A stretch of DNA of 64,000 nucleotides from Trypanosoma brucei (GCA_000002445.1 CP000067.1:928001-992000), one strand, 5' to 3'. Counted from the stretch's first letter, positions 4,834 to 40,911 are shown. Numbers and translations are program-made. The notes: generated from the letters alone by a model not told the origin.

Positions 4834-6153
4834 TTACCGCCTAATCATCTCCTCCTTCGTCGTGCCATCTTCGAACGTTGTCACACGCACACCGTCGGCG
4901 CGATCGAGGATGGACGTGTTGTTTGCATATTGGAACAGCATACTACCGTCAGGGTAGGCTGTTGTAGTTAACTCCCTTTTCCTAAATACTCTCGTACCAT
5001 CGGGCTTGAGAAGTGTCACATCTCCATTACGATATGAATATTGCCACGTGCCGTCAGGCAACTGCGTACATTTGGGATCAGGCTCCGCAGAAGCCTTGTT
5101 CTCGCATGGGTCCATACCCTCCGTCTGGGGCTGCTTGGCCTGCACCCCAGGCACGCGTTCGGGAGAGGAGGGTTCGCTGTTAGCAGATGGTGTTGTTGTA
5201 ACCTCAACCGTATCATGTGTCAAAAAAGTAGCCCCACTGTCTCTTAGCCCGCTCATTGCCTTCGTTACCGCTTCACGCTCCAACTTCATGCGATGAACCC
5301 GGATCTTCTCCCCCCGATCACTGGAGGCGTAGTAGGTCTCTGCTTTTTTTAACTGCTGAAGAATGAACCCCCAGTTCATCCGAGACACGGCGTCACGTGC
5401 TACCTTCTCACGAATTTCGCTCAACTTCTTGCCCACGCCCTCCGACATCGGTGCAGTCATGGCAAATGCTTCAGCCGCAGCTTTAGTATCATAAAGCGAG
5501 GCGCGCGCTGCACGACACCACGGTGGCGGCGGAGCCGCCGCTACAGATCCGCTGGATTCAGCACGAACTGCCTCCACTAGCACAGCTTCCGTTACGTTGA
5601 CCACTGCCAGTGGCCAAAGACCGAGAAGTAATGGGGAGCGTTGAGCGGGCATATTCACGACGAGGAGCGGACGTTCCCCCGCTTGCTGTGCATCGTAGAC
5701 TAACCACGTCCATCCGGCTTCTCGGCGGTTCGACGCATGTATAACGAGCTCCTCCACAAGAGCGGCCATCGATCCGAACTGCCGCTCAACAATACATCGC
5801 CATTCCGGCGGTAGCGCGCCGTCGGTCCCACACCCACACCGCTCTACAAAGTCATAGCAGAAATCCTCGCTGGCAAGAAAGTTGATTCGGTGTTTGAGGC
5901 ACGGCACACAAGGGTGTTTCAAAAAGTTATCATCGCTCGCGATCTCAGACAGCGGGATTTTGCGTTCGAGAACGGGACAATTAGACATATGTGGTTCCCT
6001 CTGCTTGGACACGTGACCAGTGGCCACAATGAGGTGCGCGGCGCATACCGAAGCCCCGGTCGGCACGGGTGGATCGAGCAGCGGCAGCAGCGCCGGCAGC
6101 AACCGATGCAACTCCCGTGCGTTGCGCAACGATGTTACAGTCCTCCGCAGCAT
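4834..6153 (-). CDS. Hypothetical protein with C-terminal TCP10/CPAP G-box-like repeats
   Basis: The 439-aa ORF is in the minus polycistron. Its C-terminus carries repeated 'PDGT/ADGV...F..G' units: 'LPDGTWQYSYRNGDVTLLKPDGTRVFRKRELTTTAYPDGSMLFQYANNTSILDRADGVRVTTFEDGTTKEE'. This is typical of the G-box beta-sheet repeat of the SAS-4/CPAP/TCP10 family. Confidence 0.5.
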   Translation of the reverse strand: MLRRTVTSLRNARELHRLLPALLPLLDPPVPTGASVCAAHLIVATGHVSKQREPHMSNCPVLERKIPLSEIASDDNFLKHPCVPCLKHRINFLASEDFCYDFVERCGCGTDGALPPEWRCIVERQFGSMAALVEELVIHASNRREAGWTWLVYDAQQAGERPLLVVNMPAQRSPLLLGLWPLAVVNVTEAVLVEAVRAESSGSVAAAPPPPWCRAARASLYDTKAAAEAFAMTAPMSEGVGKKLSEIREKVARDAVSRMNWGFILQQLKKAETYYASSDRGEKIRVHRMKLEREAVTKAMSGLRDSGATFLTHDTVEVTTTPSANSEPSSPERVPGVQAKQPQTEGMDPCENKASAEPDPKCTQLPDGTWQYSYRNGDVTLLKPDGTRVFRKRELTTTAYPDGSMLFQYANNTSILDRADGVRVTTFEDGTTKEEMIRR

Positions 6154-15000: not shown

Positions 15001-17122
15001 CCCGCTGCCGCTCTAGCTCCCGTTCAACTTGGTCACAGTGCTCCGTTTGCTCGCGGAGCTCGTCAAGGGTCACGCAGTAAACCGGTTCCGCGGTATCGTC
15101 CCCTCTGAAAGTCGACAAATTGCGCTGTGCACGTATTTGATTCGCCTGGGTTTTTTGGAGTTTCAATAACTCAAGTTCACTCGCCTGGTTATCGGCAAGA
15201 TCCCTAAGCTTTTCAACCAAATCACGCAAACGACCGATCTCAGCATGAAGCTCACCATTTCGCTGTCGCAGCGACTCCTGTTCGCGCATGGTTGATGCTG
15301 TCTGCCGGCGAAACTCCTCGGCGGATTTCTCAAGCGTGTACTGCAGTGAACGGTTCTCGTTATGGATTTTGTCCAGAAGCATAAGCAGGTCTCCTATCTC
15401 GCTTTCATACGCATCCTTATCGCCTACGCGGCCCTTCATAGCAACCTCTTCAATAAACTTGTCGAACGTCATACCGCGGAATGCATGCTCCCTGAGATCA
15501 AATGCGCGGCACACCTCAACAATTGCACGATCCAAACCCTTTTTGGGTTGGTCGACGTCGCAAAGCATCCGATCCATTCCACGGGAAGGAAATTCTTGCA
15601 GCCGCTTATTTATCTCCGCGGCAGTTTGTTTCACTGGGTGTTGAACGTCAAACGACACCTGTAGCTTCTCCGATGTAGCAGTGAACTCAATATTCCTAAT
15701 AGCATCCTCAGGAACATGGCAGGCCGCAGCCTGCTCGGTCCTGAATGTCGACAGAAGCTCCTCTGGCTTGCGTTCAACAACCTTCGACCACTCCCTCCCC
15801 GGATAAGACTTTCTGTGCTTGGTGGTGACGGTGGGTTCGTTCCGGTACATCCAACGCTCATCATGGCTGCTCAGTTCCTTGATAATTTCTTGTAAGTCCT
15901 TAATATTATTTGCAGAATCGCCTCTGGGGGCCTCAACAGACCTTAACCCGACGTCGGTTTCGATTCTTTCACGACGCGGAGCATTTGTCTTGCCTGCGTT
16001 TGTAAACAAACTGAACACGAAACGCTCCTGTAAATTCAAACGCCTTTCTTCAAGTTCGCTCGTGTACATTGAAAGGCAATGAAGCTCGGCCATCGCCTCC
16101 ATGTAGCTGTTAGATAAATGAGAAAAGTGATCATTTATCTGGAGGCGAGTTTGCTCTGCCTTATCGAGTATCAACCCCACTTCATCGTCAGTTAATACGC
16201 AGTCCTGTGCTGAAGGATCAACTCCCACAATGGATATGACGGAGGAGAGGGGAGCCTTAAGCTGCACCGACGTTTTGGTGAATGATGTTAACTGACCTCC
16301 GAATGTCGGCGTCCCTCCCCGTTCGAGCTCCTCCTTCAGCTTCATCACCTTCAAACGGCAGCCCTTCATTCCCGCAATGCAGTTTGCAATGGCATCATTT
16401 TGTTCCTGCACTCGTGTGTCCGTTGTCAGACGGCAGTACGCTTCCTGATACGCTAAAGCACTTAATACCCAGTGATGTAAGCTGCTGATTGCCTCAGAAT
16501 CTCGTGATGCAGCCAGTGACGAAAGACGCTGCTCGTTTAGTGATGAACATATCTCTTCAGCGTTAGGGTACGTTTTCCCAGTGATGTCTGCGCTTATGAA
16601 ATCTGCAATGGCATTCGGCCTCCGGTATTCCATACGAATGTCGTCCCATGTGGAGCAGTTGGTTACTGTCGGGTCGTTTTGTGCCAGCGCGAGCACAGAC
16701 TTGAGAACCTCAACGGCAACTGGAGAGGGGCATGCTTGAGACGTTACTTCCCGCATGTGCACTTCGTCAACGCTCGCCACACGCGCCTTGGCATCCTCAA
16801 ACACGGCGCGTGCGGCAGAAACGCGGTCTTCGTTTTCGCTGCGGATGGCAGCCAGTTTATCACGCGCACTGGAGAGCTGCTCCTGAAACACGCCCATGCG
16901 CTTCATCTCCTTCTGAATTTCGCTGGATATATTGTGCTTCAGCGTCTCGCAGCTACCTTCATTGACTGCCCACTGCTCCACGACAACAACATGTTTGTCG
17001 GAAGAGACGACCGTGCCCAAAGCCCACTGCCAGTGCTCTCCGTTTGCCAAATGATCGAATGCAATAACTTGGCCAGGCTGTAAAGTTAGTGGGTTTTCAC
17101 TGATAACATTCAGAAGAGCCAT
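12044..17122 (-). CDS. Large repetitive coiled-coil protein (1692 aa) with a central array of 14-aa repeats; FAZ/cytoskeletal repetitive-antigen type
   Basis: This is a 5.1-kb ORF. Its centre consists of about 37 tandem copies of 'ELELK(A/V)AENEKLAE' (42 bp). The flanks are heptad-rich coiled coil with many E/L/K/Q residues. A roughly 45-aa motif 'EW.K......PE.L.S.F......ACHVP.D.I...F' recurs three times: near the N-terminus, in the middle and at the C-terminus. The architecture matches trypanosome flagellum-attachment-zone and cytoskeletal repetitive proteins. My recollection that T. brucei FAZ1 is this size with 14-aa repeats is unverified. Confidence 0.8.
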   Translation of the reverse strand: MALLNVISENPLTLQPGQVIAFDHLANGEHWQWALGTVVSSDKHVVVVEQWAVNEGSCETLKHNISSEIQKEMKRMGVFQEQLSSARDKLAAIRSENEDRVSAARAVFEDAKARVASVDEVHMREVTSQACPSPVAVEVLKSVLALAQNDPTVTNCSTWDDIRMEYRRPNAIADFISADITGKTYPNAEEICSSLNEQRLSSLAASRDSEAISSLHHWVLSALAYQEAYCRLTTDTRVQEQNDAIANCIAGMKGCRLKVMKLKEELERGGTPTFGGQLTSFTKTSVQLKAPLSSVISIVGVDPSAQDCVLTDDEVGLILDKAEQTRLQINDHFSHLSNSYMEAMAELHCLSMYTSELEERRLNLQERFVFSLFTNAGKTNAPRRERIETDVGLRSVEAPRGDSANNIKDLQEIIKELSSHDERWMYRNEPTVTTKHRKSYPGREWSKVVERKPEELLSTFRTEQAAACHVPEDAIRNIEFTATSEKLQVSFDVQHPVKQTAAEINKRLQEFPSRGMDRMLCDVDQPKKGLDRAIVEVCRAFDLREHAFRGMTFDKFIEEVAMKGRVGDKDAYESEIGDLLMLLDKIHNENRSLQYTLEKSAEEFRRQTASTMREQESLRQRNGELHAEIGRLRDLVEKLRDLADNQASELELLKLQKTQANQIRAQRNLSTFRGDDTAEPVYCVTLDELREQTEHCDQVERELERQREQCQNLLNAQDDLLAELSGVSEEKEKLEAECERLEAELRQMEEKSRLSEQGLSEMTQRLEEKQAEIEGLLENLEQLDEQLEALRAAEKSAQAHIEARDREISDLQQRLEGEIDDHIKTTALLEELRKHYNNLEELFDKQEAELMAYREKRQNAHKVRSLEPTLRPIGTQTKPFQEMVSADEISSEPLLSVTLDEYNDHMHRSNQFQQENDLLRQQLQQANDERENLHDRLEQLMAENQSLSEQLHNMHEELEREERDRSGVTLQNERLAEEIQRKTAENEQLVLENNKSRSDIRNLNVQVQRLMEELELKAAENEKLAEELELKAAENEKLAEELELKVAENEKLAEELELKVAENEKLAEELELKAAENEKLAEELELKAAENEKLAEELELKAAENEKLAEELELKAAENEKLAEELELKAAENEKLAEELELKAAENEKLAEELELKAAENEKLAEELELKVAENEKLAEELELKAAENEKLAEELELKVAENEKLAEELELKAAENEKLAEELELKAAENEKLAEELELKAAENEKLAEELELKAAENEKLAEELELKVAENEKLAEELELKAAENEKLAEELELKVAENEKLAEELELKAAENEKLAEELELKVAENEKLAEELELKAAENEKLAEELELKVAENEKLAEELELKAAENEKLAEELELKAAENEKLAEELELKAAENEKLAEELELKAAENEKLAEELELKAAENEKLAEELELKVAENEKLAEELELKAAENEKLAEELELKVAENEKLAEELELKAAENEKLAEELELKAAENEKLAEELELKAAENEKLAEELELKVAENKRLAEEVTQRLSEKELLAEDTSARLLEADSANSALQCKVKHLEEKLTLLSSEKETALATLEAEIVDLLTQLKGLNGTNSALESLCASKEKELVFLREHCELWTDPTTKKEKVITRHVKVFDGNEWMKLITDRPEALMSAFVIDAGNACHVPGDQIHEVSFLNNKEKH
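12540..14090 (-). repeat. In-frame 42-bp tandem repeat array (about 37 copies) inside the coiled-coil CDS
   Basis: Plus-strand unit: 'ctcggcagccttcagctcaagctcttctgcaagtttctcatt'. Variants gcc/acc (Ala/Val) and synonymous ttt/ctt, ttc/ttt changes are interspersed. The array generates two long spurious antisense ORFs (12453..14108 +, 12521..14158 +). Confidence 0.95.
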
Positions 17123-20100: not shown

Positions 20101-22679
20101 TTTTAACGGAGGTATCAATAATAACTTCAACAGAGGTTGAAACGAGGATACTTAGTGTGGAAAGGGCTGATGAATACATCTAGGACGCGAACCGGTAAGT
20201 ACCTTAATTTCGGGTAAATGATAATAATAATAATAACCGTATTTCTCCAGTAGTCATACCATAAACCGAGCACATGCATAATGAGTTGTTAAAACACGCA
20301 CACTATCTTCATTGTCACCAGTGTATGACACCCAACGCTGATCAAGCGCGTAGGCAACATATTACAAACGGGTGTTAAGTTGTATGAAATATGGCACTGT
20401 TTCAAATGCTACCCCCTTCTCAACAGCGTCAGTACACCTCGCACTGCAGTCGGACGAAGGCACAGATGTGACACCCAACGTCACGGTGTTTCAACAAGAC
20501 GCTTGCAGAGCGTGCAGAAAAGTGATTCCTTTGCGGCTGTGCCTATGCGCGCACCCCATTACCATCAGTACTCCCGAACAGGAACCCACCTTCCGAGACG
20601 ACAACAACGGCTGGTATAAAGATCAACGACCATGCACTTGCCAGCGCGCAGCGGACGCAACTCATAGACCCATAAAAGCATGAATTCAATAAAACAATAG
20701 CAACACCAATGTGAAAACGTCTGCGATAGCGCCGCCACCTTCATTCACCCGGTCCACTGCACTGCGCACCGCTCCCACACCGATAGGTGCCAGAGGCATC
20801 GATGAACGACTACTTCGCAGCACCTCCAAAACGGTTTTAGACAGAAATTAGCAGGGCCGCCGGCTCGCCCGGGCACTAAAGCAATCCCTTAAACTACCTG
20901 AAACCTGGCGGAAGACCCCACGGAAACGCACGGGCGGAGGCCTACAGAGAAAGGCGCCCCGCTACGCACAGGCGCCCTCGCCGGCTCACAAAAAGGAAAC
21001 CATGCGTACCTCCCACTCACGAGACACACCACAACCGCCGAACCCCATACCGTGTGGACGTCCCCCGCGCGCAGGGGGAACCACGGGTTTACTGCTGCAG
21101 TCCCGTCACCCCAGCAGCGAACACGCGGATCCCTCGCGATAGCCGAAAACAAAGCAGAGGGAAATGACTCGCGTCTGTCGGGGCCGCGGACGCCAGCGCC
21201 TCAACAGGTCAACTTTGGGCAGAACCTCCTCAGGTCGGGGACGTCAAGAGCCCCCACGTGGCACCGGGGTTGAGTACATCATTAAAGGGGAGGCCAAACG
21301 ACTGTTCGCACCCTGTCATCAGGGAGACATGGCAGCTCGCCGGCTGTTGGTTGTTGGGGTAATGGGAGAAGTGGAAACGATATTGGCTCCCTGATGTGGG
21401 AACCGATATCTTTGTTGTCCCTTGCACGCTCTTGCATGTTCCCGTGGGCGTGTAGGGGCAACTCCCGTTGTGGAGAAGATATCAGAGGCAACTGTAATTC
21501 ACCTACTGGCGTATGGTAAGGGACTGTCTCTTCAAATTTTTTTGGGGGAAAAGGAAGGCTTCTTTTGCGTTTTGAAGGGGACATACATCCACGCGACGAA
21601 GAAGTGAACTGCAAAATGATGCCTGTATTTCCGGAGCATTGATATAGCAAACCCTTCTAGGGGTTGACGAGTGTCAAAATCGGCAGAAAATAGCACAGGT
21701 AGAATGCAAGGCTCGTAACAAAATGGGGACTGGAAGAGTGCCAGCTAAACCGAAACTCGCTCAGGAGTAGTGGAACACACTCGTGTCAATATTTTTCTGT
21801 GGCCAAATCTGGAATCACCTGACCACTACTGGAAGGTTGCATGGAAGAGATAGTTTGAAGGTTTGCAGAAAGGCAATGGAGTAGCAATTCGACGAAGGAG
21901 GAAACTTAAATACCCCACATATCACGCGGAATGCTGCCTTGGAATAGGATTCCGCAGAATATGAGGGATAAATGTTATTGCCGCCTGAAGGAATAATAGT
22001 CACTTATAGGGATAGGGGTTTACGATGGGAATTAGGCAGTTCCTTCAGCTGTTGGAAGTTTTGAAGCAAATAGACAAGACAGAAAAAACAATGAACTTCC
22101 TGAGGAATCAGAGCAGGCAATGCAAAAGGCACTGACCGAAGCGCAGAGTAGAACACGATACAAATGTAGATGGTGCGATTATTAGCGTGTTCATGTGTCG
22201 GGGCCCATTCTGCACACAAGGAACAAACACTCGGTGGAAGTTGGAATGAAAAAAGATACAAATGATAAAGCATCTCCGGCATCAAAGACAGCTCCAAAGA
22301 CCCTCCAACGCTCGCAGTACAAAATGCGTGCAACAAAGTGACCTCACTGAACTCATGCAGCGGAAAGGCGAATGCAAAATAGGAAAAAAAGCACAACACT
22401 GTAAAAAGTGGGTACTACTCATCTTCCCTAAAACCGTCACAACACCCCTCCCCAGGAAGCGCTGCGTAGAGAAAGCGGTCGAAAATGCCGCAAACAGATG
22501 GTTGCCGTTTCGCATGCAACTGGCACGTTTCCATGCAAGCTATTTCAACCAAAGGATTTGGAGCTAAACACAGAGGAGCGTCAACAGACTCAAGATAACT
22601 GTCAAAGGAATTCACACTGAAACGACCATGGGTTGGGAAAAAGGAAAAGGGGGACTACTTCGCCGACGGCCAAGCCTAC

Positions 22680-25600
22680 CTACATTCCGCCACGCCATAC
22701 TTTGAAGAACCCGGCGTGTGAGTGCTGCTTGCGGCCGAGGGCACACAACTCATTGGCGCAAAAGGTGACAGTCACGCGGCGGTGTGGAACCGCACGATTC
22801 GATCAGATACTAGGGGAATAACTTTACTGCGGCGCCATGTCGGTAAGTAGCTTCGGGCCAACAAAAAACTGGCGATAGCACCAAGTGTGCGTGCCAACAT
22901 CGGGAGCTCACACCTGATGCGTCACCCCTCAAGGGAAGTGCGGGGCGCACCAATGGATGTCATAGAACTTCACCGAGCAGTGATGGTCAACATCTCCTCG
23001 ATATGAGTGTGTGGAACGTACGGGGTGAGCCCATTCGCCAACAGCTTCTCTGCATTCGTAGACCAAATCCAAACGGAGAAATTTTCTCAGGACAGCCGAC
23101 GAACTCTGACGGAAGAATTGGAACTGGTGGAACGCGCACGAATTGGAGAAATGTCTGAGGTGCGGCATCCGTGTTGCAACCGCAGGGGTTGTTCCTTGAA
23201 TCACAGCCACACCACAACACTCAACACCTCAACTTACTAAACTCGATAAGGGGATTGCGAGGTGTCATCGCTCATTGAATGGGGGAACTGGTCGACATGC
23301 AGAGGTAGCTTCCAGGCCGCATGACAAATGAAGGGTGTTTCGTGCCGTTCTGAGAGCACAAGGCTCCGGTCCGTTGCAACTGGTGCGTCAAGAAAGTGTA
23401 CGCGTCGGGGCCATTCAACCTCCTGGCGGCTATATGAGACGGTGCTCCAAAACCGACTACCGGCAGGAGAAACATTTCGTTGATCCCTACGCGCCCCGGG
23501 CAACAGATTACTTATCCTCGCCCTTAAGGCATTCGACGTGAGTTTATGGAATGGAATCGTACCTGCTGCACGGGAGAGTTATCAATAATTTCCATACAGA
23601 AACACCCTAAGAAGGTGGAGCGTTTGGATGTCCACGAGGCGGTGAAAGCGATGAGTTGCGCGCGCAAAGCCATCGAGAACATCGTTGGTAATGGAATTGG
23701 GGACTTTATGAGGGAGGGGCCCACACTAGAACCGGGATTTCGGCCGGGTCGCCCCACGCTAAGGCTGCTTCAGCGCTTCCAGATGGCCCTTGGTCACCCG
23801 TCGCCGTCGCACATGGGAGCGGCATTCATAGTTTACGCGAATGCCTTGGATGTCACACGGAAAGCGGCTGATGGTTTTATTTTACAGCAGAATGAAAGGA
23901 ACAAAAGTTGGCAAAACACTGTTAAACAGCCGGACGCTTGCAAGAGGCATAAAGCAACTGCATCAGAGCGCACTGTGCCCCTCAGCCTCGGACTCGCAGA
24001 GCCAACTCTTGGAAGCATTTCCGCTATCACATGACGGCTTTTTTGCGGATAATTTGGCGCTATCGGCGCGATGCACGAAGAGGGACCCCGAAGACCGCAC
24101 ACCGCAGGGCAGCCCCGGCGTTGTGATACAATGGCAGCAAAAGTGACTTATGTACGCCCGCACGCCGGTGACGAAATGCAAACTGCTCAGTTACATTGAA
24201 CACTTATCGTCAATGTAACATCACGGTGGGGCTCGGGCTGGGGTTGGAAAAGTACCGAAGATGTTTTGGGACGGCGCGCTGCGCAAACACAGCGAATAGC
24301 AAGCCGCAGGGCGCTGAAAATAGAAACCGTTTGGGCGACGGCGTATCACCCAGATGAGGCGTTGCGTGCTTTACACTTCCGGTTTTTACAATTACGTGAC
24401 ACGTGCAGAGCTGATGTGTGGCATTAGTGCGTCTCAGAAGGTATTCGAGAGGCGACCGGAGCGGAGCGGCACAAAGACAGCCAAACCATCGAGGATGTAT
24501 CGCACGCGCACTATACAACCCCACCCGTAACTTCGTGCCGGGACGGAAGCCGCTGATCCAAACTTCTCCAACGCCTTCCTTTTCAATGCAACAGGGCCTT
24601 CCGCGGGAAGATAAGGCCCGTGTGCGCAAACTGTCCCGGAGAGGCTTAGATCGGCGAATGGACATTCTTAAACCAGAGGTCCGGCCAGACCCTCAGCCCA
24701 AGTGAGGACGAAAAAACGATACATCAGGTCAACAAAAGCGGCGGCGCACTTGCACGTGGGCGCTGTGTAGGACCCCTTGCACTGGCGGTGGGCCTGCGAA
24801 AGGCACCGAATCCCTTCCTAATTCACAAGGCGGTGCTGCCCAGCCTCTCGATATACCCGCTTTCGTTCTCCACCATGCCGGAGGCGAGCGCAGTTACCAT
24901 TACTGACCCGTCCCTGCACAAATTGCGGTGGTCAGCTGTGACAATACCGGGCAGGAACAATTGCATTAGACCACAGTTTGTACTCCCCTGCTGCGGCGTG
25001 GCATTGAACGAAGGCGCGCGGCGAAATTGCGAAGAATGTCGTTGGCATGTCACAGTTGCCCGACCGGGGGTTTGCAGACACCGCGGCCTATTCGAAGCGT
25101 TTGTTGTGATCTGGGGAAATATACTCGGGGGCCCACCGGGACACATTTCACGACCAAATGCAAAGAATGGATGCGCGGGCCGACAGCGTTGGCTGGCACT
25201 GCTGGTGGTCGCCGCACAAAATCAACTCATGGGTGGCCCGTTCCACCGGTGGCAGGAACCGTAATTTCCACTGGCGACGCTTGCACCCCAACCAATCCCA
25301 ACGACCACGACCTCGGTGTTAACAACCTTCTTTCACGCTGAGGGACAAAAAAGGTGTACTAATTGCGGTGCGATATGGCAAACACCGAACGAGTGCAGTG
25401 ACGAATATGGCGGCGGATCTTCTGGCGTAGGCGCGTTCTTTTGAAAAATGAAATGCGGTGATGCGTCGCGTCCAGCGTATGATCCATCAGAACCCATGCA
25501 ACCGCGGCCCGTACTGGCGCCTTCGCGAGTATCAACAACAGCAAGCCTCAACACTAAACATTCAAAGGCGTCACGACGGCACCACCTTCGCAGCCACATT

Positions 25601-26200
25601 TGTGATACAAAGCAATCGGTTCGCGAGCTAAACAGGTCTTGAATTGAAAAGCAGGATGCAAGATGTAAAGCAATAACTACAAGACAGCGCATCTACCGCA
25701 AGAAAACATTGTTTTACCCAACAAGCTACCATGCCCCGGAGGCAACATAGCCAACACCAAACGACACCGCCATCCTGCAGAAGTTCTGCTTCTCCGGTCG
25801 CCTTGAATAACTTCAACTCACCACAAAACGACTCCAGCGCTTGACGCCACTCTTAGCTACGACTATTGAAAAACAGGGTAAACAGGAACAAAAATCATAC
25901 AGCACCCCCATTAACAAGAGAATAGACAGAAAAAACTAAGCAACAAACAAAGAAGTGGAAAAGTAGGCAAGTCAGCAAGTCTAACATCTAGCATCGCCTC
26001 CTCACCCTTCAACAAACACACACCCAAAAGACAAAACAATGCACGAAAAATATTCACATCAGCAAAAGAAAAAAAACCAAAAATACAAAATAAAGAAAAA
26101 AACAACATTTATCAGCGGTGAAGAGAACGGTACAACTAAAGAAAAAACAAGAATAAAAAAAGACACAATCAACAAACACAAAACATATTAAAACCAGCGA
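22680..26200 (+). mobile_element. Degenerate non-LTR retrotransposon remnant (ingi/DIRE-like), left arm of the palindrome
   Basis: The ORF fragment 23546..24034 (+) keeps recognisable non-LTR RT motifs. These are 'EPGFRPGRPT' (motif 3, Q.GFR.GRS) followed by 'AAFIVYANALDV' (motif 4, h.D..KAFD.V). The surrounding sequence is GC-rich and heavily stop-interrupted. The RT reads toward the satellite array. Confidence 0.5.
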
Positions 26201-29200
26201 CAAATGGGTATGATTGTGCAACACTGTTTTTGCACAATCATACGCATAAACGCGTATTTGACGTGAAAATACGCAATAGTGCACAATTTGCACACAAACA
26301 TGCCACATTGTGCATGTTATGCAAGAATGCGTGTTTTGCACCAAAACACCTTACATATTGCATTGCAACACTGTTTTTGCGCAATCATACGCATGAACGC
26401 GTATTTGACGTGAAAATACGCAATAGTGCACAATTTGTGAACAAACATGCCACATTGTGCATGTTATGCAAGAATGCGTGTTTTGCACCAAAACACCTTA
26501 CATATTGCATTGCAATACTGTTTTTGCACAATCATACGCATAAACGCGTATTTGACGTGAAAATACGCAATAGTGCACAATTTGCACACAAACACGCCAC
26601 ATTGTGCATGTTATGCAAGAATGCGTGTTTTACACCAAAACACCTTACATATTGCATTGCAACACTGTTTTTGCGCAATCATACGCATGAACGCGTATTT
26701 GACGTGAAAATACGCAATAGTGCACAATTTGCACACAAACATGCCACATTGTGCATGTTATGCAAGAATGCGTGTTTTACACCAAAACACCTTACATATT
26801 GCATTGCAACACTGTTTTTGCACAATCATACGCATAAACGCGTATTTGACGTGAAAATACGCAATAGTGCACAATTTGCACACAAACATGCCACATTGTG
26901 CATGTTATGCAAGAATGCGTGTTTTGCACCAAAACACCTTACATATTGCATTGCAACACTGTTTTTGCGCAATCATACGCATAAACGCGTATTTGACGTG
27001 AAAATACGCAATAGTGCACAATTTGCACACAAACATGCCACATTGTGCATGTTATGCAAGAATGCGTGTTTTACACCAAAACACCTTACATATTGCATTG
27101 CAATACTGTTTTTGCACAATCATACGCATAAACGCGTATTTGACGTGAAAATACGCAATAGTGCACAATTTGCACACAAACACGCCACATTGTGCATGTT
27201 ATGCAAGAATGCGTGTTTTACACCAAAACACCTTACATATTGCATTGCAACACTGTTTTTGCGCAATCATACGCATGAACGCGTATTTAACGTGAAAATA
27301 CGCAATAGTGCACAATTTGCACACAAACACGCCACATTGTGCATGTTATGCAAGAATGCGTGTTTTACACCAAAACACCTTACATATTGCATTGCAACAC
27401 TGTTTTTGCGCAATCATACGCATGAACGCGTATTTGACGTGAAAATACGCAATAGTGCACAATTTGCACACAAACACGCCACATTGTGCATGTTATGCAA
27501 GAATGCGTGTTTTACACCAAAACACCTTACATGTTGCATTGCAACACTGTTTTTGCGCAATCATACGCATAAACGCGTATTTGACGTGAAAATACGCAAT
27601 AGTGCACAATTTGCACACAAACACGCCACATTGTGCATGTTATGCAAGAATGCGTGTTTTACACCAAAACACCTTACATGTGGCATTGCAACACTGTTTT
27701 TGCGCAATCATACGCATAAACGCGTATTTGACGTGAAAATACGCAATAGTGCACAATTTGCACACAAACACGCCACATTGTGCATGTTATGCAAGAATGC
27801 GTGTTTTACACCAAAACACCTTACATATTGCATTGCAACACTGTTTTTGCGCAATCATACGCATGAACGCGTATTTGACGTGAAAATACGCAATAGTGCA
27901 CAATTTGCACACAAACACGCCACATTGTGCATGTTATGCAAGAATGCGTGTTTTACACCAAAACACCTTACATGTTGCATTGCAACACTGTTTTTGCGCA
28001 ATCATACGCATAAACGCGTATTTGACGTGAAAATACGCAATAGTGCACAATTTGCACACAAACATGCCACATTGTGCATGTTATGCAAGAATGCGTGTTT
28101 TGCACCAAAACACCTTACATATTGCATTGCAACACTGTTTTTGCACAATCATACGCATAAACGCGTATTTGACGTGAAAATACGCAATAGTGCACAATTT
28201 GCACACAAACATGCCACATTGTGCATGTTATGCAAGAATGCGTGTTTTACACCAAAACACCTTACATATTGCATTGCAATACTGTTTTTGCACAATCATA
28301 CGCATAAACGCGTATTTGACGTGAAAATACGCAATAGTGCACAATTTGTGAACAAACATGCCACGTTGTGCATGTTATGCAAGAATGCGTGTTTTACACC
28401 AAAACACCTTACATGTTGCATTGCAACACTGTTTTTGCGCAATCATACGCATAAACGCGTATTTGACGTGAAAATACGCAATAGTGCACAATTTGCACAC
28501 AAACATGCCACATTGTGCATGTTATGCAAGAATGCGTGTTTTGCACCAAAACACCTTACATATTGCATTGCAACACTGTTTTTGCACAATCATACGCATA
28601 AACGCGTATTTGACGTGAAAATACGCAATAGTGCACAATTTGCACACAAACATGCAACATTGTGCATGTTATGCAAGAATGCGTGTTTTACACCAAAACA
28701 CCTTACATATTGCATTGCAACACTGTTTTTGCGCAATCATACGCATGAACGCGTATTTGACGTGAAAATACGCAATAGTGCACAATTTGCACACAAACAT
28801 GCCACATTGTGCATGTTATGCAAGAATGCGTGTTTTGCACCAAAACACCTTACATATTGCATTGCAACACTGTTTTTGCACAATCATACGCATAAACGCG
28901 TATTTGACGTGAAAATACGCAATAGTGCACAATTTGTGAACAAACATGCCACATTGTGCATGTTATGCAAGAATGCGTGTTTTGCACAAAAACACCTTAC
29001 ATGTTGCATTGCAACACTGTTTTTGCGCAATCATACGCATGAACGCGTATTTGACGTGAAAATACGCAATAGTGCACAATTTGTGAACAAACATGCCACA
29101 TTGTGCATGTTATGCAAGAATGCGTGTTTTGCACCAAAACACCTTACATGTTGCGTTGCAACACTGTTTTTGCGCAATCATACGCATGAACGCGTATTTG

Positions 29201-29765
29201 ACGTGAAAATACGCAATAGTGCACAATTTGCACACAAACATGCCACATTGTGCATGTTATGCAAGAATGCGTGTTTTGCACCAAAACACCTTACATATTG
29301 CATTGCAACACTGTTTTTGCGCAATCATACGCATGAACGCGTATTTGACGTGAAAATACGCAATAGTGCACAATTTGTGAACAAACATGCAACGTTGTGC
29401 ATGTTATGCAAGAATGCGTGTTTTGCACCAAAACACCTTACATATTGCATTGCAACACTGTTTTTGCGCAATCATACGCATGAACGCGTATTTGACGTGA
29501 AAATACGCAATAGTGCACAATTTGTGAACAAACATGCAACGTTGTGCATGTTATGCAAGAATGCGTGTTTTGCACCAAAACACCTTACATATTGCATTGC
29601 AACACTGTTTTTGCACAATCATACGCATGAACGCGTATTTGACGTGAAAATACGCAATAGTGCACAATTTGTGAACAAACATGCCACATTGTGCATGTTA
29701 TGCAAGAATGCGTGTTTTGCACAAAAACACCTTACATATTGCATTGCAACACTGTTTTTGCACAA
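26200..29765. repeat. 147-bp satellite, about 24 head-to-tail copies (candidate centromeric repeat, CIR147-like)
   Basis: The period is exactly 147 bp (for example 'tgttttt' at 26225 recurs at 26372). The unit is 'tgtttttgcacaatcatacgcataaacgcgtatttgacgtgaaaatacgcaatagtgcacaatttgcacacaaacatgccacattgtgcatgttatgcaagaatgcgtgttttgcaccaaaacaccttacatattgcattgcaacac'. Because 147 = 3 x 49 and one frame lacks stops, a spurious 1229-aa ORF appears (26230..29919 +). Confidence 0.95.
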
Positions 29766-32700
29766 TCATACCCATTTGTCTCTGGTTTCAATATGTTTTG
29801 TGTTTGTTGATTGTGTCTTTTTTTATTCTTGTTTTTTCTGTAGTTGTCCCGTTCTCTTCACCGCTGATAGATGTTTTTTTTTCTTTATTTTGTATTTTTG
29901 GTTTTTTTTCTTTTGCTGATGTGAATATTTTTCGTGCATTGTTTTGTCTTTTGGGTGTGCGTTTGTTGAAGGGTGAGGAGGCGATGCTAGATGTTAGACT
30001 TGCTGACATGCCGACTTTTCCACTTCTTTGTTTGTTGCTTAGTTTTTTCTGTCTATTCTCTTGTTAATGGGGGTGCTGTATGATTTTGGTTCCTGTTTAC
30101 CCTGTTTTTCAGTAGTCGTAGCTAAGAGTGGCGTCAAGCGCTGGAGTCGTTTTGTGGTGAGTTGAAGTTATTCAAGGCGACCGGAGAAGCAGAACTTCTG
30201 CAGGATGGCGGTGTCGTTTGGTGTTGGCTATGTTGCCTCCGGGGCATGGTAGCTTGTTGGGTAAAACAATGTTTTCTTGCGGTAGATGCGCTGTCTTGTA
30301 GTTATTGCTTTACATCTTGCATCCTGCTTTTCAATTCAAGACCTGTTTAGCTCGCGAACCGATTGCTTTGTATCACAAATGTGGCTGCGAAGGTGGTGCC
30401 GTCGTGACGCCTTTGAATGTTTAGTGTTGAGGCTTGCTGTTGTTGATACTCGCGAAGCCGCCAGTACGGGCCGCGGTTGCATGGGTTCTGATGGATCATA
30501 CGCTGGACGCGACGCATCACCGCATTTAATTTTTCAAAAGAACGCGCCTACGCCAGAAGATCCGCCGCCATATTCGTCACTGCACTCGTTCGGTGTTTGC
30601 CATATCGCACCGCAATTAGTACACCTTTTTTGTCCCTCAGCGTGAAAGAAGGTTGTTAACACCGAGGTCGTGGTCGTTGGGATTGGTTGGGGTGCAAGCG
30701 TCGCCAGTGGAAATTACGGTTCCTGCCACCGGTGGAACGGGCCACCCATGAGTTGATTTTGTGCGGCGACCACCAGCAGTGCCAGCCAACGCTGTCGGCC
30801 CGCGCATCCATTCTTTGCATTTGGTCGTGAAATGTGTCCCGGTGGGCCCCCGAGTATATTTCCCCAGATCACAACAAACGCTTCGAATAGGCCGCGGTGT
30901 CTGCAAACCCCCGGTCGGGCAACTGTGACATGCCAACGACATTCTTCGCAATTTCGCCGCGCGCCTTCGTTCAATGCCACGCCGCAGCAGGGGAGTACAA
31001 ACTGTGGTCTAATGCAATTGTTCCTGCCCGGTATTGTCACAGCTGACCACCGCAATTTGTGCAGGGACGGGTCAGTAATGGTAACTGCGCTCGCCTCCGG
31101 CATGGTGGAGAACGAAAGCGGGTATATCGAGAGGCTGGGCAGCACCGCCTTGTGAATTAGGAAGGGATTCGGTGCCTTTCGCAGGCCCACCGCCAGTGCA
31201 AGGGGTCCTACACAGCGCCCACGTGCAAGTGCGCCGCCGCTTTTGTTGACCTGATGTATCGTTTTTTCGTCCTCACTTGGGCTGAGGGTCTGGCCGGACC
31301 TCTGGTTTAAGAATGTCCATTCGCCGATCTAAGCCTCTCCGGGACAGTTTGCGCACACGGGCCTTATCTTCCCGCGGAAGGCCCTGTTGCATTGAAAAGG
31401 AAGGCGTTGGAGAAGTTTGGATCAGCGGCTTCCGTCCCGGCACGAAGTTACGGGTGGGGTTGTATAGTGCGCGTGCGATACATCCTCGATGGTTTGGCTG
31501 TCTTTGTGCCGCTCCGCTCCGGTCGCCTCTCGAATACCTTCTGAGACGCACTAATGCCACACATCAGCTCTGCACGTGTCACGTAATTGTAAAAACCGGA
31601 AGTGTAAAGCACGCAACGCCTCATCTGGGTGATACGCCGTCGCCCAAACGGTTTCTATTTTCAGCGCCCTGCGGCTTGCTATTCGCTGTGTTTGCGCAGC
31701 GCGCCGTCCCAAAACATCTTCGGTACTTTTCCAACCCCAGCCCGAGCCCCACCGTGATGTTACATTGACGATAAGTGTTCAATGTAACTGAGCAGTTTGC
31801 ATTTCGTCACCGGCGTGCGGGCGTACATAAGTCACTTTTGCTGCCATTGTATCACAACGCCGGGGCTGCCCTGCGGTGTGCGGTCTTCGGGGTCCCTCTT
31901 CGTGTATCGCGCCGATAGCGCCAAATTATCCGCAAAAAAGCCGTCATGTGATAGCGGAAATGCTTCCAAGAGTTGGCTCTGCGAGTCCGAGGCTGAGGGG
32001 CACAGTGCGCTCTGATGCAGTTGCTTTATGCCTCTTGCAAGCGTCCGGCTGTTTAACAGTGTTTTGCCAACTTTTGTTCCTTTCATTCTGCTGTAAAATA
32101 AAACCATCAGCCGCTTTCCGTGTGACATCCAAGGCATTCGCGTAAACTATGAATGCCGCTCCCATGTGCGACGGCGACGGGTGACCAAGGGCCATCTGGA
32201 AGCGCTGAAGCAGCCTTAGCGTGGGGCGACCCGGCCGAAATCCCGGTTCTAGTGTGGGCCCCTCCCTCATAAAGTCCCCAATTCCATTACCAACGATGTT
32301 CTCGATGGCTTTGCGCGCGCAACTCATCGCTTTCACCGCCTCGTGGACATCCAAACGCTCCACCTTCTTAGGGTGTTTCTGTATGGAAATTATTGATAAC
32401 TCTCCCGTGCAGCAGGTACGATTCCATTCCATAAACTCACGTCGAATGCCTTAAGGGCGAGGATAAGTAATCTGTTGCCCGGGGCGCGTAGGGATCAACG
32501 AAATGTTTCTCCTGCCGGTAGTCGGTTTTGGAGCACCGTCTCATATAGCCGCCAGGAGGTTGAATGGCCCCGACGCGTACACTTTCTTGACGCACCAGTT
32601 GCAACGGACCGGAGCCTTGTGCTTTCAGAACGGCACGAAGCACCCTTCATTTGTCATGCGGCCTGGAAGCTACCTCTGCATGTCGACCAGTTCCCCCATT

Positions 32701-33300
32701 CAATGAGCGATGACACCTCGCAATCCCCTTATCGAGTTTAGTAAGTTGAGGTGTTGAGTGTTGTGGTGTGGCTGTGATTCAAGGAACAACCCCTGCGGTT
32801 GCAACACGGATGCCGCACCTCAGACATTTCTCCAATTCGTGCGCGTTCCACCAGTTCCAATTCTTCCGTCAGAGTTCGTCGGCTGTCCTGAGAAAATTTC
32901 TCCGTGTGGATTTGGTCTATGAATGCAGAGAAGCTGTTGGTGAATGGGCTCACCCCGTACGTTCCACACACTCATATCGAGGAGATGTTGACCATCACTG
33001 CTCGGTGAAGTTCTATGACATCCATTGGTGCGCCCCGCACTTCCCTTGAGGGGTGACGCATCAGGTGTGAGCTCCCGATGTTGGCACGCACACTTGGTGC
33101 TATCGCCAGTTTTTTGTTGGCCCGAAGCTACTTACCGACATGGCGCCGCAGTAAAGTTATTCCCCTAGTATCTGATCGAATCGTGCGGTTCCACACCGCC
33201 GCGTGACTGTCACCTTTTGCACCAATGAGTTGTGTGCCCTCGGCCGCAAGCAGCACTCACACGCCGGGTTCTTCAAAGTATGGCGTGGCGGAATGTAGGC
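29765..33300 (-). mobile_element. Degenerate non-LTR retrotransposon remnant, right arm (inverted copy of 22680-26200)
   Basis: Mirror-image ORF fragments occur on the opposite strand. For example, 31944..32432 (-) is identical to 23546..24034 (+). Also, 30162..30350 (+) equals 25628..25816 (-), and 32738..32971 (-) equals 23007..23240 (+) with two substitutions. Coordinate sums are constant at about 55978, giving a symmetry centre near 27989. Confidence 0.5.
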
Positions 33301-40711: not shown

Positions 40712-40911
40712 GGGCCAACGCAAGCATGATGGTAGCGGCGGGGTGGAGCTCCGCGAACGTATTTTCTTCATAACTCATCCTCAGCCGATGAGAAGCAGCA
40801 TTTGTACTGTGGCACGCGATCTTCCAGAGCCACTTATCAATATAACAGATGAGAAAGTGACCCTCGGTTTCTCATCCATATTACCGGGGAGCTGGTCCTT
40901 AATACCGCAGC
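40712..40911 (+). repeat. Left copy of a roughly 200-bp inverted repeat pair
   Basis: This sequence is the reverse complement of 44834..45032 at about 97% identity. Both copies keep an open frame: 'RKHDGSGGVELRERIFFITHPQPMRSSICTVARDLPEP(L/F)INITDE(K/R)VTLGFSSILPGSWSLIPQRN'. Confidence 0.85.

What the first reader, a model, noticed from the sequence alone, without database searches (positions are those of the whole stretch)
22680..33300. Near-identical 3.5-kb inverted arms: recent conversion, cruciform-capable structure, or assembly artefact
The two arms differ at only about 1-2% of positions, judged from aligned ORF fragments with 0-2 aa changes per 60-160 aa. Yet the retroelement they derive from is heavily decayed, with many stops and no intact RT. 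Old elements that are nearly identical to each other imply ongoing gene conversion or recent duplication across the satellite. Alternatively, an assembler may have mirrored one flank. A 3.5-kb perfect palindrome is also a potential hairpin or fragile site and a substrate for isochromosome-like rearrangement.
Basis: seen in the sequence. Interest (0 to 1): 0.55.

Follow-up and report, generated by a model that had tools for sequence, protein, structure and literature searches.

The report
Inverted repeats flanking trypanosome centromere 4
The two near-identical 3.5-kb inverted arms are real and are the already published "head-to-head" degenerate retroelement copies on either side of the 147-bp satellite of the Trypanosoma brucei chromosome 4 centromere; they appear to stay alike by copying sequence from one arm to the other, not because an assembler mirrored a flank.

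Summary
Arms 22679-26221 and 29758-33299 align over 3,543 nt with 19 substitutions and 1 indel (99.4%). They flank 24 head-to-tail 147-bp monomers.

The window is T. brucei TREU927 chromosome 4, 928,001-992,000. This is the mapped centromere, published in 2007 as "head-to-head DIREs either side of a 3.5 kb AT-rich element".

A mirrored-flank artefact is refuted. Each outer and inner junction recurs in other assemblies (T. b. gambiense, two T. equiperdum strains, three short-read assemblies). About 15 of the 20 arm differences recur in them, each on its own kind of arm. The array itself is collapsed: 3.6 kb assembled against about 70 kb by restriction mapping. The "palindrome" therefore has a spacer of tens of kb, and cruciform extrusion of the arms is implausible.

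Arm copies group by genome, not by side. The 927 arms differ at 9 of 3,067 sites, while orthologous arms in other strains differ at 16-21. The 927 differences avoid the central 2 kb. This points to arm-to-arm gene conversion. Consensus blending in the Sanger assembly is the main rival.

The structure is already known. The conversion evidence and junction anatomy are modest additions.

The parts
22679..26221 (+). Left arm of the inverted repeat: a degenerate element annotated in the literature as DIRE, with its A-rich 3' end towards the satellite. The last 14-18 nt are reverse-complement satellite.
   Evidence: 3,543 nt, 99.44% to the right arm; junction alignment; longest ORF 162 aa; Obado 2007.
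29758..33299 (-). Right arm of the inverted repeat. It is the same element on the minus strand, truncated at its outer (5') end relative to the left copy. The + satellite runs seamlessly into it ('R-type' junction).
   Evidence: The outer junction 33299/33300 recurs in L001 (PacBio T. b. equiperdum IVM-t1) and in L003, L004, L005, L006.
26222..29771 (+). CIR147 centromeric satellite: 24 full 147-bp monomers plus 22 nt, all in one orientation, 39% G+C. This is a collapsed representation of an array of about 70 kb.
   Evidence: The consensus contains TTGACGTGAAAATAC, the CIR147 target quoted in PMC12975129. Array size: Echeverry 2012 Table 1 and Additional file 2.
26204..26247 (+). Left ('L-type') junction. 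14 nt of reverse-complement satellite (26208-26221) are followed by 8 nt (CACTGTTT) and then the same 14 nt forward, giving a 14-bp stem / 8-nt loop fold-back. The orientation switch lies at TGCAA|CACTG, with 4-5 nt of microhomology to the normal monomer end.
   Evidence: DNA fold -17.1 kcal/mol, z = -7.0. The identical junction occurs in T. equiperdum OVI (L006) and on T. b. gambiense chromosome 5 (L002).
22066..22678 (+). Outer extension of the left copy that is missing from the right arm. It is shared with the centromere-flanking copy on T. b. gambiense chromosome 5, so the left copy is the longer version (about 4.15 kb) of the same element.
   Evidence: L002 8522-14855 aligns to window 22066-28403; OVI contig covers 22507-22678 contiguous with the arm.
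12044..17122 (-). FAZ1 (Tb927.4.3740-type flagellar attachment zone protein), the last gene of the leftward-transcribed cluster. It anchors the window to TREU927 chromosome 4.
   Evidence: 1,692/1,692 aa identical to XP_844524.1 on a 1,590,432-bp record.
45266..49090 (+). Receptor-type adenylate cyclase gene, the first long ORF to the right. It is transcribed away from the centromere, so the IR and satellite sit in a strand-switch region of about 28 kb that contains no gene.

Best explanation
The feature is the core of the Trypanosoma brucei chromosome 4 centromere. A CIR147 satellite array, on which the kinetoplastid kinetochore assembles, is bracketed by two inverted copies of one decayed element of 3.5-4.2 kb (annotated as DIRE). 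The A-rich tails of both copies face the array.

Origin (inferred): both copies come from a single inverted duplication of an already decayed element together with its junction to the satellite. They are not two separate insertions. They share every stop and frameshift, the same 3' end and the same 14-18 nt of attached satellite. One copy is cut short at 22679-equivalent. One junction is a fold-back with microhomology.

Age (shown): the structure is older than the split of the T. brucei subspecies sampled, because both arm types and both junction types occur in T. b. gambiense and T. equiperdum assemblies.

Maintenance (inferred from sequence patterns): the arms remain 99.4-99.6% identical because homologous recombination between them transfers sequence from one arm to the other. 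This is non-crossover gene conversion, giving concerted evolution, and it is most efficient in the middle of the arms. Crossovers between the arms would invert the whole array (a prediction, possibly seen in T. b. gambiense).

Structure-forming potential: with a spacer of 3.5 kb in the assembly and about 70 kb in vivo, the arms are not a cruciform-forming palindrome.
For: Identity of the locus:
- FAZ1 is 100% identical to the TREU927 protein on a 1.59-Mb record.
- Published coordinates of Tb927.4.3690, Tb927.4.3760 and the array (954159..957772) match window ORFs and the array with one offset of 928,000.
- KKT2 occupies the CIR147 arrays of chromosomes 4, 5 and 8.

The repeat is real:
- The right outer junction, arm and R-type junction are contiguous on a PacBio contig of T. 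b. equiperdum IVM-t1 (L001) and in three Logan assemblies.
- The left flank, arm and L-type junction are present in T. equiperdum OVI (L006).
- FAZ1, left flank and arm are contiguous in T. b. gambiense chromosome 4 (L007).
- Seven left-specific states are shared by 927-left and OVI-left. The matching right-arm states are shared by 927-right with the IVM-t1 and Logan right arms.

Single duplication:
- The alignment is ungapped over 3,424 nt.
- Both arms carry the same 14 nt of satellite.
- The right arm lacks 22066-22678, which the left arm and the chromosome 5 copy have.

Conversion:
- Over 22679-25745 the 927 arms differ at 9 sites. 927-right differs from orthologous right arms at 16-18 sites, and 927-left differs from gambiense-left at 21.
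- Gambiense-left and IVM-t1-right differ at only 4 sites.
- Thirteen sites separate haplotype A (both 927 arms and OVI-left) from haplotype B (gambiense-left, IVM-t1-right, Logan-right). With the chromosome 5 copy as outgroup, 4 derived states are shared by both 927 arms, and 9 are shared by B copies on both sides.
- Of the 20 differences between the 927 arms, 1 lies in the central 2.06 kb where 11.6 are expected (P<1e-5). The largest gap is 1,377 nt (P=0.001).

Context: seven other large IRs in Tb927 are 99-100% identical, and two were PCR-verified in another strain (Tschudi 2012).
Against: - The pattern 'differences only within about 700 nt of each arm end' is also what a Sanger shotgun assembly produces when reads in the middle of a 3.5-kb repeat cannot be assigned to one copy. 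The central identity in TREU927 may therefore be partly technical.
- No other genome yielded both arms from a single long-read assembly, so within-genome comparison rests on TREU927 alone.
- The gambiense 'left' arm carries an R-type junction and right-arm states throughout. It could be right-arm reads mis-placed in a reference-guided assembly. That would remove one of the two cases of haplotype B on the left side.
- The OVI contig is from short reads and may be a mosaic of both arms.
- The restriction mapping of Echeverry 2012 brackets window 20871-33488, so it does not test the arms themselves.
- No recombination event was observed directly.
- The DIRE identity could not be confirmed by any search.
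Confidence: 0.7

Rival explanations
1. The inverted repeat is real, but its near-identity in the central 2 kb is an artefact of the 2005 Sanger assembly. Reads further than one read length from a unique anchor could not be assigned to one arm, so both arms received the same consensus. On this reading the true arms would differ by roughly 0.7-1%, as the other copies do from one another.
For: The 20 differences lie at 22757-23354 and 25450-26198, within about 700-770 nt of the outer boundary or the orientation-specific inner junction. Only one (24073) lies in the central 2.06 kb. The same assembly collapsed the satellite from about 70 kb to 3.6 kb.
Against: - Position 24073, in the centre, and position 23037 still differ between the arms, and their states match other strains' arms of the same side. 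Reads were therefore being assigned to individual arms.
- Neither TREU927 arm shows any haplotype B state at the 13 A/B sites, although the orthologous right arm of IVM-t1 is B throughout.
- The short-read OVI contig has the same A haplotype.
- Other large IRs of Tb927 are 99-100% identical, and two were verified by PCR.
- An edge-enriched divergence pattern is also the expected biological signature of conversion tracts that must lie inside the homology.
Confidence: 0.2
2. The arms are alike simply because the inverted duplication is very recent, with no conversion involved.
For: Divergence is low (0.4-0.6%) and the alignment is indel-free over 3.4 kb.
Against: - The truncated right arm with the same outer junction occurs in T. 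b. equiperdum IVM-t1 and in three other samples.
- The left arm occurs in T. equiperdum OVI and T. b. gambiense.
- The L-type junction even occurs on gambiense chromosome 5. The duplication therefore predates these lineages.
- Despite that age, the 927 arms are closer to each other (9 differences) than to their orthologues (16-21).
Confidence: 0.04
3. One arm does not exist: the assembler, or a finisher, mirrored one flank of the satellite.
For: The region is repeat-rich and the array is demonstrably mis-sized in the assembly.
Against: - A mirrored flank would be 100% identical and would carry a mirrored satellite junction. Instead the arms differ at 19 sites plus 1 indel.
- The satellite has the same orientation at both junctions, so the two junction sequences are different molecules.
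- Each arm is contiguous with its own unique flank in independent assemblies.
Confidence: 0.02
4. The identity of the arms is maintained by selection for a function that needs both arms. Examples would be a long hairpin transcript feeding the RNAi pathway, or an S. pombe imr-like boundary or structural element required for kinetochore placement.
For: - Tschudi 2012 speculated that the high identity of T. brucei large IRs reflects selection for a DNA or RNA hairpin. All seven IRs they listed give siRNAs, and CIR147 is transcribed on both strands and diced by DCL2.
- The architecture (IR arms directly abutting the kinetochore-binding core) resembles fission-yeast and Candida/Komagataella centromeres (established knowledge).
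Against: [quoted passage not shown]
- In three samples the arm is interrupted by a RIME/ingi insertion at position 25745-equivalent.
- The arms differ in outer extent.
- Other T. brucei centromeres are described as having 'at least one' DIRE/ingi, not an IR.
Confidence: 0.05

Closest known systems
T. brucei chromosome 4 centromeric domain as described by Obado et al. 2007 (PMC1868937) and Echeverry et al. 2012 (PMC3292466)
   Same: It is the same object. It lies between directional gene clusters and consists of a 3.5-3.6 kb assembled array of about 147-bp AT-rich repeats at 954159..957772, with head-to-head DIREs on either side.
   Different: In the text read here, those papers do not quantify the arm identity (99.4-99.6%), the junction anatomy, the unequal outer ends, or the behaviour of the arms across strains. 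Those points are the only additions made here.
Large near-identical inverted repeats of the Tb927 genome catalogued by Tschudi et al. 2012 (PMC3447711, Table 3)
   Same: They are kilobase-scale IRs (422 bp-10 kb) with 99-100% arm identity and kilobase spacers in the same genome. Two were verified by PCR, and the authors raised the same question of why the arms stay identical.
   Different: The chromosome 4 centromeric IR is not in that list. It brackets a satellite array and is made of retroelement-derived sequence. No arm-derived siRNA is reported, since centromeric regions outside CIR147 were 'not a significant source'.
Inverted-repeat centromeres of fungi: S. pombe imr repeats around the central core, and Candida tropicalis, C. 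albicans CEN5 and Komagataella phaffii centromeres (established knowledge; S. pombe organisation also summarised)
   Same: Chromosome-specific inverted arms of 2-7 kb lie directly on either side of the kinetochore-binding core. The arms are homogenised within a centromere. IR-mediated inversion of the core or isochromosome formation is known or inferred in those yeasts.
   Different: Here the core is a tandem satellite of about 70 kb, not a unique sequence. There are no tRNA genes in or next to the arms. The kinetochore is the unconventional KKT type without CENP-A. Other T. brucei centromeres are not reported to have the IR, so it is unlikely to be a required element.
Arm-to-arm gene conversion in large palindromes with long spacers, such as human Y-chromosome palindromes P1-P8 (established knowledge)
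   Same: Inverted arms are separated by spacers of kilobases to more than 100 kb. Paralogous arms are more similar than orthologous arms between lineages. Divergence is concentrated away from the homogenised interior.
   Different: The arms here are 100-1000 times shorter, non-coding and decayed. Identity (99.4-99.6%) is lower than the Y-palindrome value of about 99.97%. Evidence here comes from a handful of assemblies, not population or primate comparisons.
177-bp repeat palindromes forming the core of T. brucei minichromosomes (Wickstead, Ersfeld & Gull 2004, cited)
   Same: This is a satellite-based chromosome core in the same organism, with a single orientation-switch point. The left junction here is such a switch point within CIR147, 14 nt from the arm.
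   Different: In the TREU927 assembly the 147-bp array is unidirectional apart from those 14 nt. The inverted elements are the non-satellite arms.

Membership tests
T. brucei regional centromere of the CIR147 class | Tandem array of about 147-bp AT-rich CIR147 repeats, single site per chromosome | tested here: met
   TRF reports period 147, 24.2 copies and 97% matches at 26217-29775. The consensus has 39% G+C and contains the published CIR147 target TTGACGTGAAAATAC. There is no second array in the 64-kb window. Uniqueness on the whole chromosome comes only from the literature.
T. brucei regional centromere of the CIR147 class | Located between directional gene clusters (strand-switch region) | tested here: met
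   All long ORFs from 224 to 17122 are on the minus strand. The next long ORF, at 45266-49090, is on the plus strand (adenylate cyclase).
T. brucei regional centromere of the CIR147 class | Etoposide/topoisomerase-II cleavage and KKT kinetochore protein occupancy | not testable with these tools
   Reported for chromosome 4 by Obado 2007 and for KKT2 in PMC12975129. Not testable from sequence.
DIRE (degenerate ingi/L1Tc-related retroelement) | Recognisable remnants of the ingi/L1Tc coding sequence (endonuclease, reverse transcriptase) | tested here: not met
   - No Pfam family in any of six frames at E<=1, nor for the 168-aa best ORF at E<=10.
- No PDB match at E<=10.
- Only self-type hits in the 5.8-billion word search.
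- Only a spurious repeat protein in the 1.84-billion HMMER search.
- RT-like strings seen by eye (GFRPGRPT, AAFIVYANALDV) are not statistically supported.
The DIRE label rests on GeneDB and Obado 2007.
DIRE (degenerate ingi/L1Tc-related retroelement) | Many stops and frameshifts; A-rich 3' end | tested here: met
   The longest ORF is 162 aa in 3.5 kb. The inner about 170 nt of each arm is A-rich on the strand reading towards the array.
DIRE (degenerate ingi/L1Tc-related retroelement) | Conserved about 79-nt 5' signature shared with ingi/RIME | tested here: inconclusive
   The RIME in the window starts with CCCTGGCG. No CCCTGGC lies at or near 22066 or inside the arms, and sensitive blastn of the RIME against the arms finds nothing. 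The 5' end of the element may lie elsewhere or be degraded.
Inverted-repeat (IR) centromere of the S. pombe / Candida / Komagataella kind | Near-identical inverted arms immediately flanking the kinetochore-binding core | tested here: met
   The arms abut the CIR147 array on both sides with 99.4% identity.
Inverted-repeat (IR) centromere of the S. pombe / Candida / Komagataella kind | Unique, non-repetitive central core (and, for S. pombe imr, embedded tRNA genes) | tested here: not met
   The core is a tandem satellite. There are no tRNA genes and no Rfam family in the window.
Inverted-repeat (IR) centromere of the S. pombe / Candida / Komagataella kind | The IR is required for, or contributes to, centromere function | not testable with these tools
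   This needs arm deletion or minichromosome assays. Other T. brucei centromeres are described only as having at least one DIRE/ingi.
Palindrome homogenised by arm-to-arm gene conversion | Paralogous arms within a genome are more similar than orthologous arms between genomes | tested here: met
   Differences over 3,067 nt: 927-left against 927-right 9; 927-right against IVM-t1/Logan right 16-18; 927-left against gambiense-left 21; gambiense-left against IVM-t1-right 4. Caveat: this depends on the correctness of the assemblies.
Cruciform / hairpin-forming palindrome (fragile site) | Arms separated by no spacer or a very short one, so that intrastrand pairing can nucleate | tested here: not met
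   The spacer is 3,536 nt in the assembly and about 70 kb by restriction mapping. Only a 14-bp stem / 8-nt loop exists, at 26208-26243.
Assembly artefact (mirrored flank) | Arms identical, inner junctions mirror images, second arm absent from independent data | tested here: not met
   The arms show 19 substitutions and 1 indel. The junctions differ in kind, L-type against R-type. Both arms are found with their own flanks in other assemblies.

The most novel reading that the evidence does not exclude
Centromere 4 of T. brucei behaves as a true IR-type centromere module, in two respects.

(i) Crossovers between the arms flip the whole satellite array. This would give two isomers. TREU927, T. equiperdum OVI and IVM-t1 have the fold-back (L-type) junction on the FAZ1 side and the seamless (R-type) junction on the other side. 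T. b. gambiense DAL972 has the seamless junction on the FAZ1 side.

(ii) The module 'DIRE + fold-back junction + CIR147' has been exchanged between non-homologous centromeres. The identical L-type junction and the longer 4.15-kb element occur on gambiense chromosome 5.

If this is right, satellite orientation at a kinetoplastid centromere is polymorphic, and centromere flanks evolve in concert both within and between chromosomes.
Probability: 0.3. Interest if true: 0.55.

Novelty: already known. Interest (0 to 1): 0.3.

Why it matters
The locus is one of the best-mapped centromeres of an organism whose kinetochore is built from unconventional proteins and lacks CENP-A.

The practical lessons are as follows:
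- The reference sequence here is structurally right at the arms but collapsed in the array.
- Reads cannot be placed uniquely in the central 2 kb of the arms, so ChIP-seq or small-RNA signal over the arms is ambiguous.
- The 20 arm-specific sites and the two junction types listed here give handles for arm-specific PCR or read assignment.

Biologically, the data suggest that pericentromeric flanks in T. brucei undergo intrachromosomal gene conversion, as in yeast IR centromeres and Y-chromosome palindromes. They also suggest that centromere modules may move between chromosomes 4 and 5. That is an incremental addition to a published structure, not a new kind of element.

Tried and rejected
- Exact-product look-ups of window genes failed. 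This covers FAZ1, adenylate cyclase and a 151-aa arm ORF. TREU927 gene positions are not in that index.
- Access to other genomes came only through the cluster of the 162-aa arm ORF and the gambiense FAZ1.
- A concatenated query of seven right-flank ORFs, meant to reach the gambiense chromosome 4 right arm, found nothing and used the last homologue search. The flip-isomer prediction therefore stayed untested.
- I first read L006 (T. equiperdum OVI) as a right arm 173-183 nt longer than in TREU927. The alignment showed a run of 10 N between the right flank and the rest, so L006 is a scaffold join and its arm is a left-type copy.
- I first suspected that L002 was the gambiense orthologue of the left arm. 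I rejected this because the record is FN554968.1 at about 177 kb, the gambiense FAZ1 is on a different record of 1,432,056 bp, and the upstream 8.5 kb does not match the window.
- Retroelement identity of the arms could not be shown by any route: Pfam in six frames, PDB, two very large protein searches, and blastn against the RIME in the window.
- The Rfam and tRNA scans of the window were empty, so no rRNA or tRNA genes accompany this centromere within 64 kb.
- The published restriction map was examined as a test of the arms. It brackets 20871-33488 as a whole, so it says nothing about the arms individually.


Full report
1. THE OBSERVATION

The repeat finder reports arms 22679-26102 and 29876-33299: 3,424 nt, ungapped, 3,773 nt apart. 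A direct count gives 14 mismatches (99.59%). Complementarity falls to random level (19-35%) in every 100-nt block outside and inside the arms.

Gapped blastn extends the repeat by about 120 nt to 22679-26221 against 33299-29758. That alignment has 3,543 columns, 19 mismatches, one 1-nt indel and 99.44% identity.

Between the arms are 24 complete 147-bp monomers plus 22 nt of a 25th (26222-29771). All are in the same orientation and 94.6-100% identical to their consensus.

The arms are decayed. The longest ORF is 162 aa, and no Pfam domain is found in any of the six frames.

2. WHAT THE LOCUS IS

The 1,692-aa ORF at 12044-17122 (minus strand) is 100% identical to FAZ1 of T. b. brucei TREU927, which lies on a 1,590,432-bp record.

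Published coordinates fit the window with a single offset of 928,000:
- Tb927.4.3690 (932834..934153) is window 4834..6153.
- Tb927.4.3760 (981586..982791) is window 53586..54791.
- The centromeric array (954159..957772) is window 26159..29772.

The window is therefore chromosome 4, 928,001-992,000. The feature is the centromere mapped by etoposide/topoisomerase-II cleavage. Obado et al. [quoted passage not shown]

The gene layout agrees. All long ORFs up to 17122 are on the minus strand. The next long ORF, a receptor adenylate cyclase at 45266-49090, is on the plus strand.

The satellite is CIR147. Its consensus contains the published TALE target TTGACGTGAAAATAC. KKT2 occupies these arrays on chromosomes 4, 5 and 8. 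CIR147 is transcribed on both strands and processed into DCL2-dependent siRNAs.

3. ASSEMBLY QUESTIONS

The array is collapsed. A NotI fragment predicted at 94 kb runs at 165 kb, and Echeverry et al. 2012 estimate about 70 kb of repeats against 3.6 kb in the sequence. The interval that absorbs the extra DNA is window 20871-33488, so the mapping does not test the arms themselves.

First, the two inner junctions are not mirror images. On the right, the + oriented satellite runs seamlessly into the arm; I call this the R-type junction. On the left, the arm ends with 14 nt of reverse-complement satellite and the orientation then switches; I call this the L-type junction, …GGGTATGATTGTGCAA|CACTGTTTTTGCACAATCATAC….

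Second, most differences between the arms are heritable. Seven left-specific states (23037, 24073, 25965, 25970, 26018, 26103, 26198) are shared by TREU927-left and the T. equiperdum OVI left-type contig. The alternative states are shared by TREU927-right with right arms from other strains.

Third, every junction is seen elsewhere:
- Right flank, arm and R-type junction lie on one PacBio contig of T. b. equiperdum IVM-t1 (L001).
- Right flank and arm are present in three Logan short-read assemblies (L003-L005).
- Left flank (from 22507), arm and L-type junction are present in T. equiperdum OVI (L006).
- FAZ1, left flank and arm are contiguous in T. b. gambiense chromosome 4 (L007).

All of these assemblies break inside the satellite, either at N gaps or at contig ends.

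4. ANATOMY AND ORIGIN (INFERRED)

The A-rich inner end of each arm faces the array. The left copy is longer than the right. Window 22066-22678 is absent from the right arm but present in a third copy, on T. b. gambiense record FN554968.1 at about 177 kb (L002). That record is chromosome 5, for three reasons:
- The gambiense FAZ1 lies on a different record (1,432,056 bp).
- The upstream 8.5 kb of L002 does not match the window.
- The position matches the published chromosome 5 array at about 198 kb.

The chromosome 5 copy also has the identical L-type junction.

The L-type junction is a fold-back. It consists of 14 nt of reverse-complement satellite, 8 nt (CACTGTTT), then the same 14 nt forward. 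As DNA it folds at -17.1 kcal/mol with z = -7. The switch falls in TGCAA, which is also the normal end of a monomer, giving 4-5 nt of microhomology.

Taken together, these features indicate one inverted duplication of an already decayed element plus its satellite junction, not two insertions:
- identical decay in both arms;
- an identical 3' end, including the attached satellite;
- one truncated outer end;
- one microhomology fold-back junction.

5. WHY THE ARMS ARE SO SIMILAR

The arm copies do not group by side (differences over 22679-25745, 3,067 nt):

| Comparison | Differences |
|---|---|
| TREU927-left vs TREU927-right | 9 |
| TREU927-right vs its orthologues (IVM-t1, Logan) | 16-18 |
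| TREU927-left vs gambiense-left | 21 |
| gambiense-left vs IVM-t1-right | 4 |

Thirteen sites separate two haplotypes:
- Haplotype A: both TREU927 arms and OVI-left.
- Haplotype B: gambiense-left, IVM-t1-right and the three Logan right arms.

Taking the chromosome 5 copy as outgroup, four derived states are shared by both TREU927 arms, and nine are shared by B copies found on both sides.

Since the IR predates these lineages, shared derived states on both arms require transfer between the arms.

Within TREU927, the 20 differences avoid the centre. One lies in 23379-25441, where 11.6 are expected (P<1e-5 by permutation). The largest gap is 1,377 nt (P=0.001). This is the expected footprint of conversion tracts confined within the homology.

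It is also the expected footprint of consensus blending in a Sanger shotgun assembly beyond one read length from an anchor. I cannot exclude that rival and give it about 0.2. Three points count against it:
- The arm-specific sites 23037 and 24073 (the latter within the central tract) were resolved.
- Both TREU927 arms lack any B state.
- Seven other large IRs in Tb927 are 99-100% identical, and two were confirmed by PCR in another strain.

That survey lists no chromosome 4 IR, so the near-identity of these particular arms seems not to have been tabulated before.

6. CRUCIFORM, FRAGILITY AND REARRANGEMENT

The arms are separated by 3.5 kb in the assembly and about 70 kb in vivo. It is established that cruciform extrusion and replication-associated hairpins need very short spacers. 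The 3.5-kb arms are therefore not a cruciform substrate. Only the 14-bp mini-hairpin at the left junction could fold.

Recombination between inverted arms has two expected outcomes: conversion (supported above) and inversion of the intervening array.

The gambiense chromosome 4 assembly shows the seamless R-type junction on the FAZ1 side. Its arm and junction-proximal monomers nearly match the IVM-t1 right arm: 5 differences in 3.5 kb, 146/147 in the first monomer and 806/840 overall. This is what a flipped isomer would look like. It is equally what mis-placed right-arm reads in a reference-guided assembly would look like. I could not fetch the gambiense right side to decide between them.

Isochromosome formation through the arms is plausible only by analogy with Candida and fission yeast.

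7. THE RETROELEMENT LABEL

None of the searches recovers reverse transcriptase or endonuclease homology:
- Pfam in six frames.
- PDB sequences.
- The word-indexed 5.8-billion protein search.
- The exhaustive HMMER search of 1.84 billion representatives. This gave only the same ORF from other trypanosomes and a spurious repetitive protein.

Strings that look RT-like by eye (GFRPGRPT…AAFIVYANALDV in the 162-aa ORF) are a lead, not evidence. The bona fide RIME in the window shares nothing with the arms. 'DIRE' is therefore taken from the published annotation.

8. COMPARISON AND VERDICT

The object itself is known (Obado 2007; Echeverry 2012).

In architecture it works like the IR centromeres of S. 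pombe, Candida and Komagataella. It fails their defining feature of a unique core and lacks tRNA genes. Other T. brucei centromeres are not reported to need an IR.

In dynamics it resembles palindromes homogenised by arm-to-arm conversion. The fold-back switch point recalls the 177-bp palindromes of T. brucei minichromosomes.

Novelty: already known. The additions are precise arm identity, junction anatomy, unequal arm ends, sharing of the module with chromosome 5, and cross-strain evidence for concerted evolution.

Interest: 0.3.

The most novel reading not excluded is array flipping plus inter-centromere exchange of the whole module (probability about 0.3, interest about 0.55 if true).

Noticed in passing
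window 34250-34748 (minus strand): A 499-bp RIME retroposon starts with CCCTGGCG, ends in an A run and is flanked by a 12-bp target-site duplication, ATATATAGAACA. The site is empty in T. b. equiperdum IVM-t1 (L001) and in Logan contigs L003 and L004. It is therefore a lineage-specific, polymorphic insertion 950 nt outside the right arm.
   Followed up: yes
L003 7435-7447, L004 4251-4281, L005 3112-3141 (arm position 25745 / window 30233 equivalent): All three Logan contigs (ERR7929163, ERR7929161, ERR7929156) leave the arm at the same base. They continue as TTTTTTTTTTTTTAGAATTTTCTTCGTGCC, the reverse complement of a RIME/ingi 3' end. In those samples the arm attached to the right flank is interrupted by a retroposon insertion that TREU927 lacks.
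   Followed up: partly
L002 (T. b. gambiense FN554968.1:166841-187329), 8522-14855: The chromosome 5 centromere flank of T. b. gambiense carries the same 4.15-kb element (window 22066-26221 equivalent, about 98.8% identical) and exactly the same fold-back junction to CIR147 as the chromosome 4 left arm of TREU927. Centromere-flank modules are therefore shared between non-homologous chromosomes.
   Followed up: partly
L007 1-4388 (T. b. gambiense FN554967.1, chromosome 4): In the gambiense assembly the arm on the FAZ1 side joins the satellite through the seamless junction. The satellite there is in the opposite orientation to TREU927's left junction. This is either a flipped array isomer or mis-placed right-arm reads.
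   Followed up: partly
window 12530-14089; L007 10001-15247: The FAZ1 coding sequence contains 37 copies of a 42-bp (14-aa, EELELKAAENEKLA) repeat at 95% identity. The gambiense orthologue is 1,748 aa against 1,692 aa, which fits repeat-number variation of four units. Two long spurious ORFs (551 and 545 aa) run through the repeat on the opposite strand.
   Followed up: no
window 26230-29919 (+): Because 147 bp equals 49 codons, the satellite array reads as an uninterrupted 1,229-aa ORF. This is a trap for automatic gene callers.
   Followed up: no
window 40717-40916 and 44835-45034: A second, small inverted repeat (200 bp, 98.5%) brackets 3.9 kb just upstream of the adenylate cyclase gene. One arm is also seen in T. 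b. equiperdum (L001 2023-2220, 97%).
   Followed up: no
window 55000-58000: A 3-kb block has very low G+C (28-29%) and many short A/T-rich microsatellites. It lies between the 401-aa ORF and the protein kinase gene and is unrelated to the centromeric satellite.
   Followed up: no
L001 14742-14841; L002 14857-14956; L006 979-988: Every other assembly breaks at this locus: 100-N gaps occur after about 2.1 kb of satellite in IVM-t1 and in gambiense chromosome 5. A 10-N scaffold join sits exactly at the outer boundary of the right arm in T. equiperdum OVI. No public assembly reached here spans arm-array-arm.
   Followed up: yes
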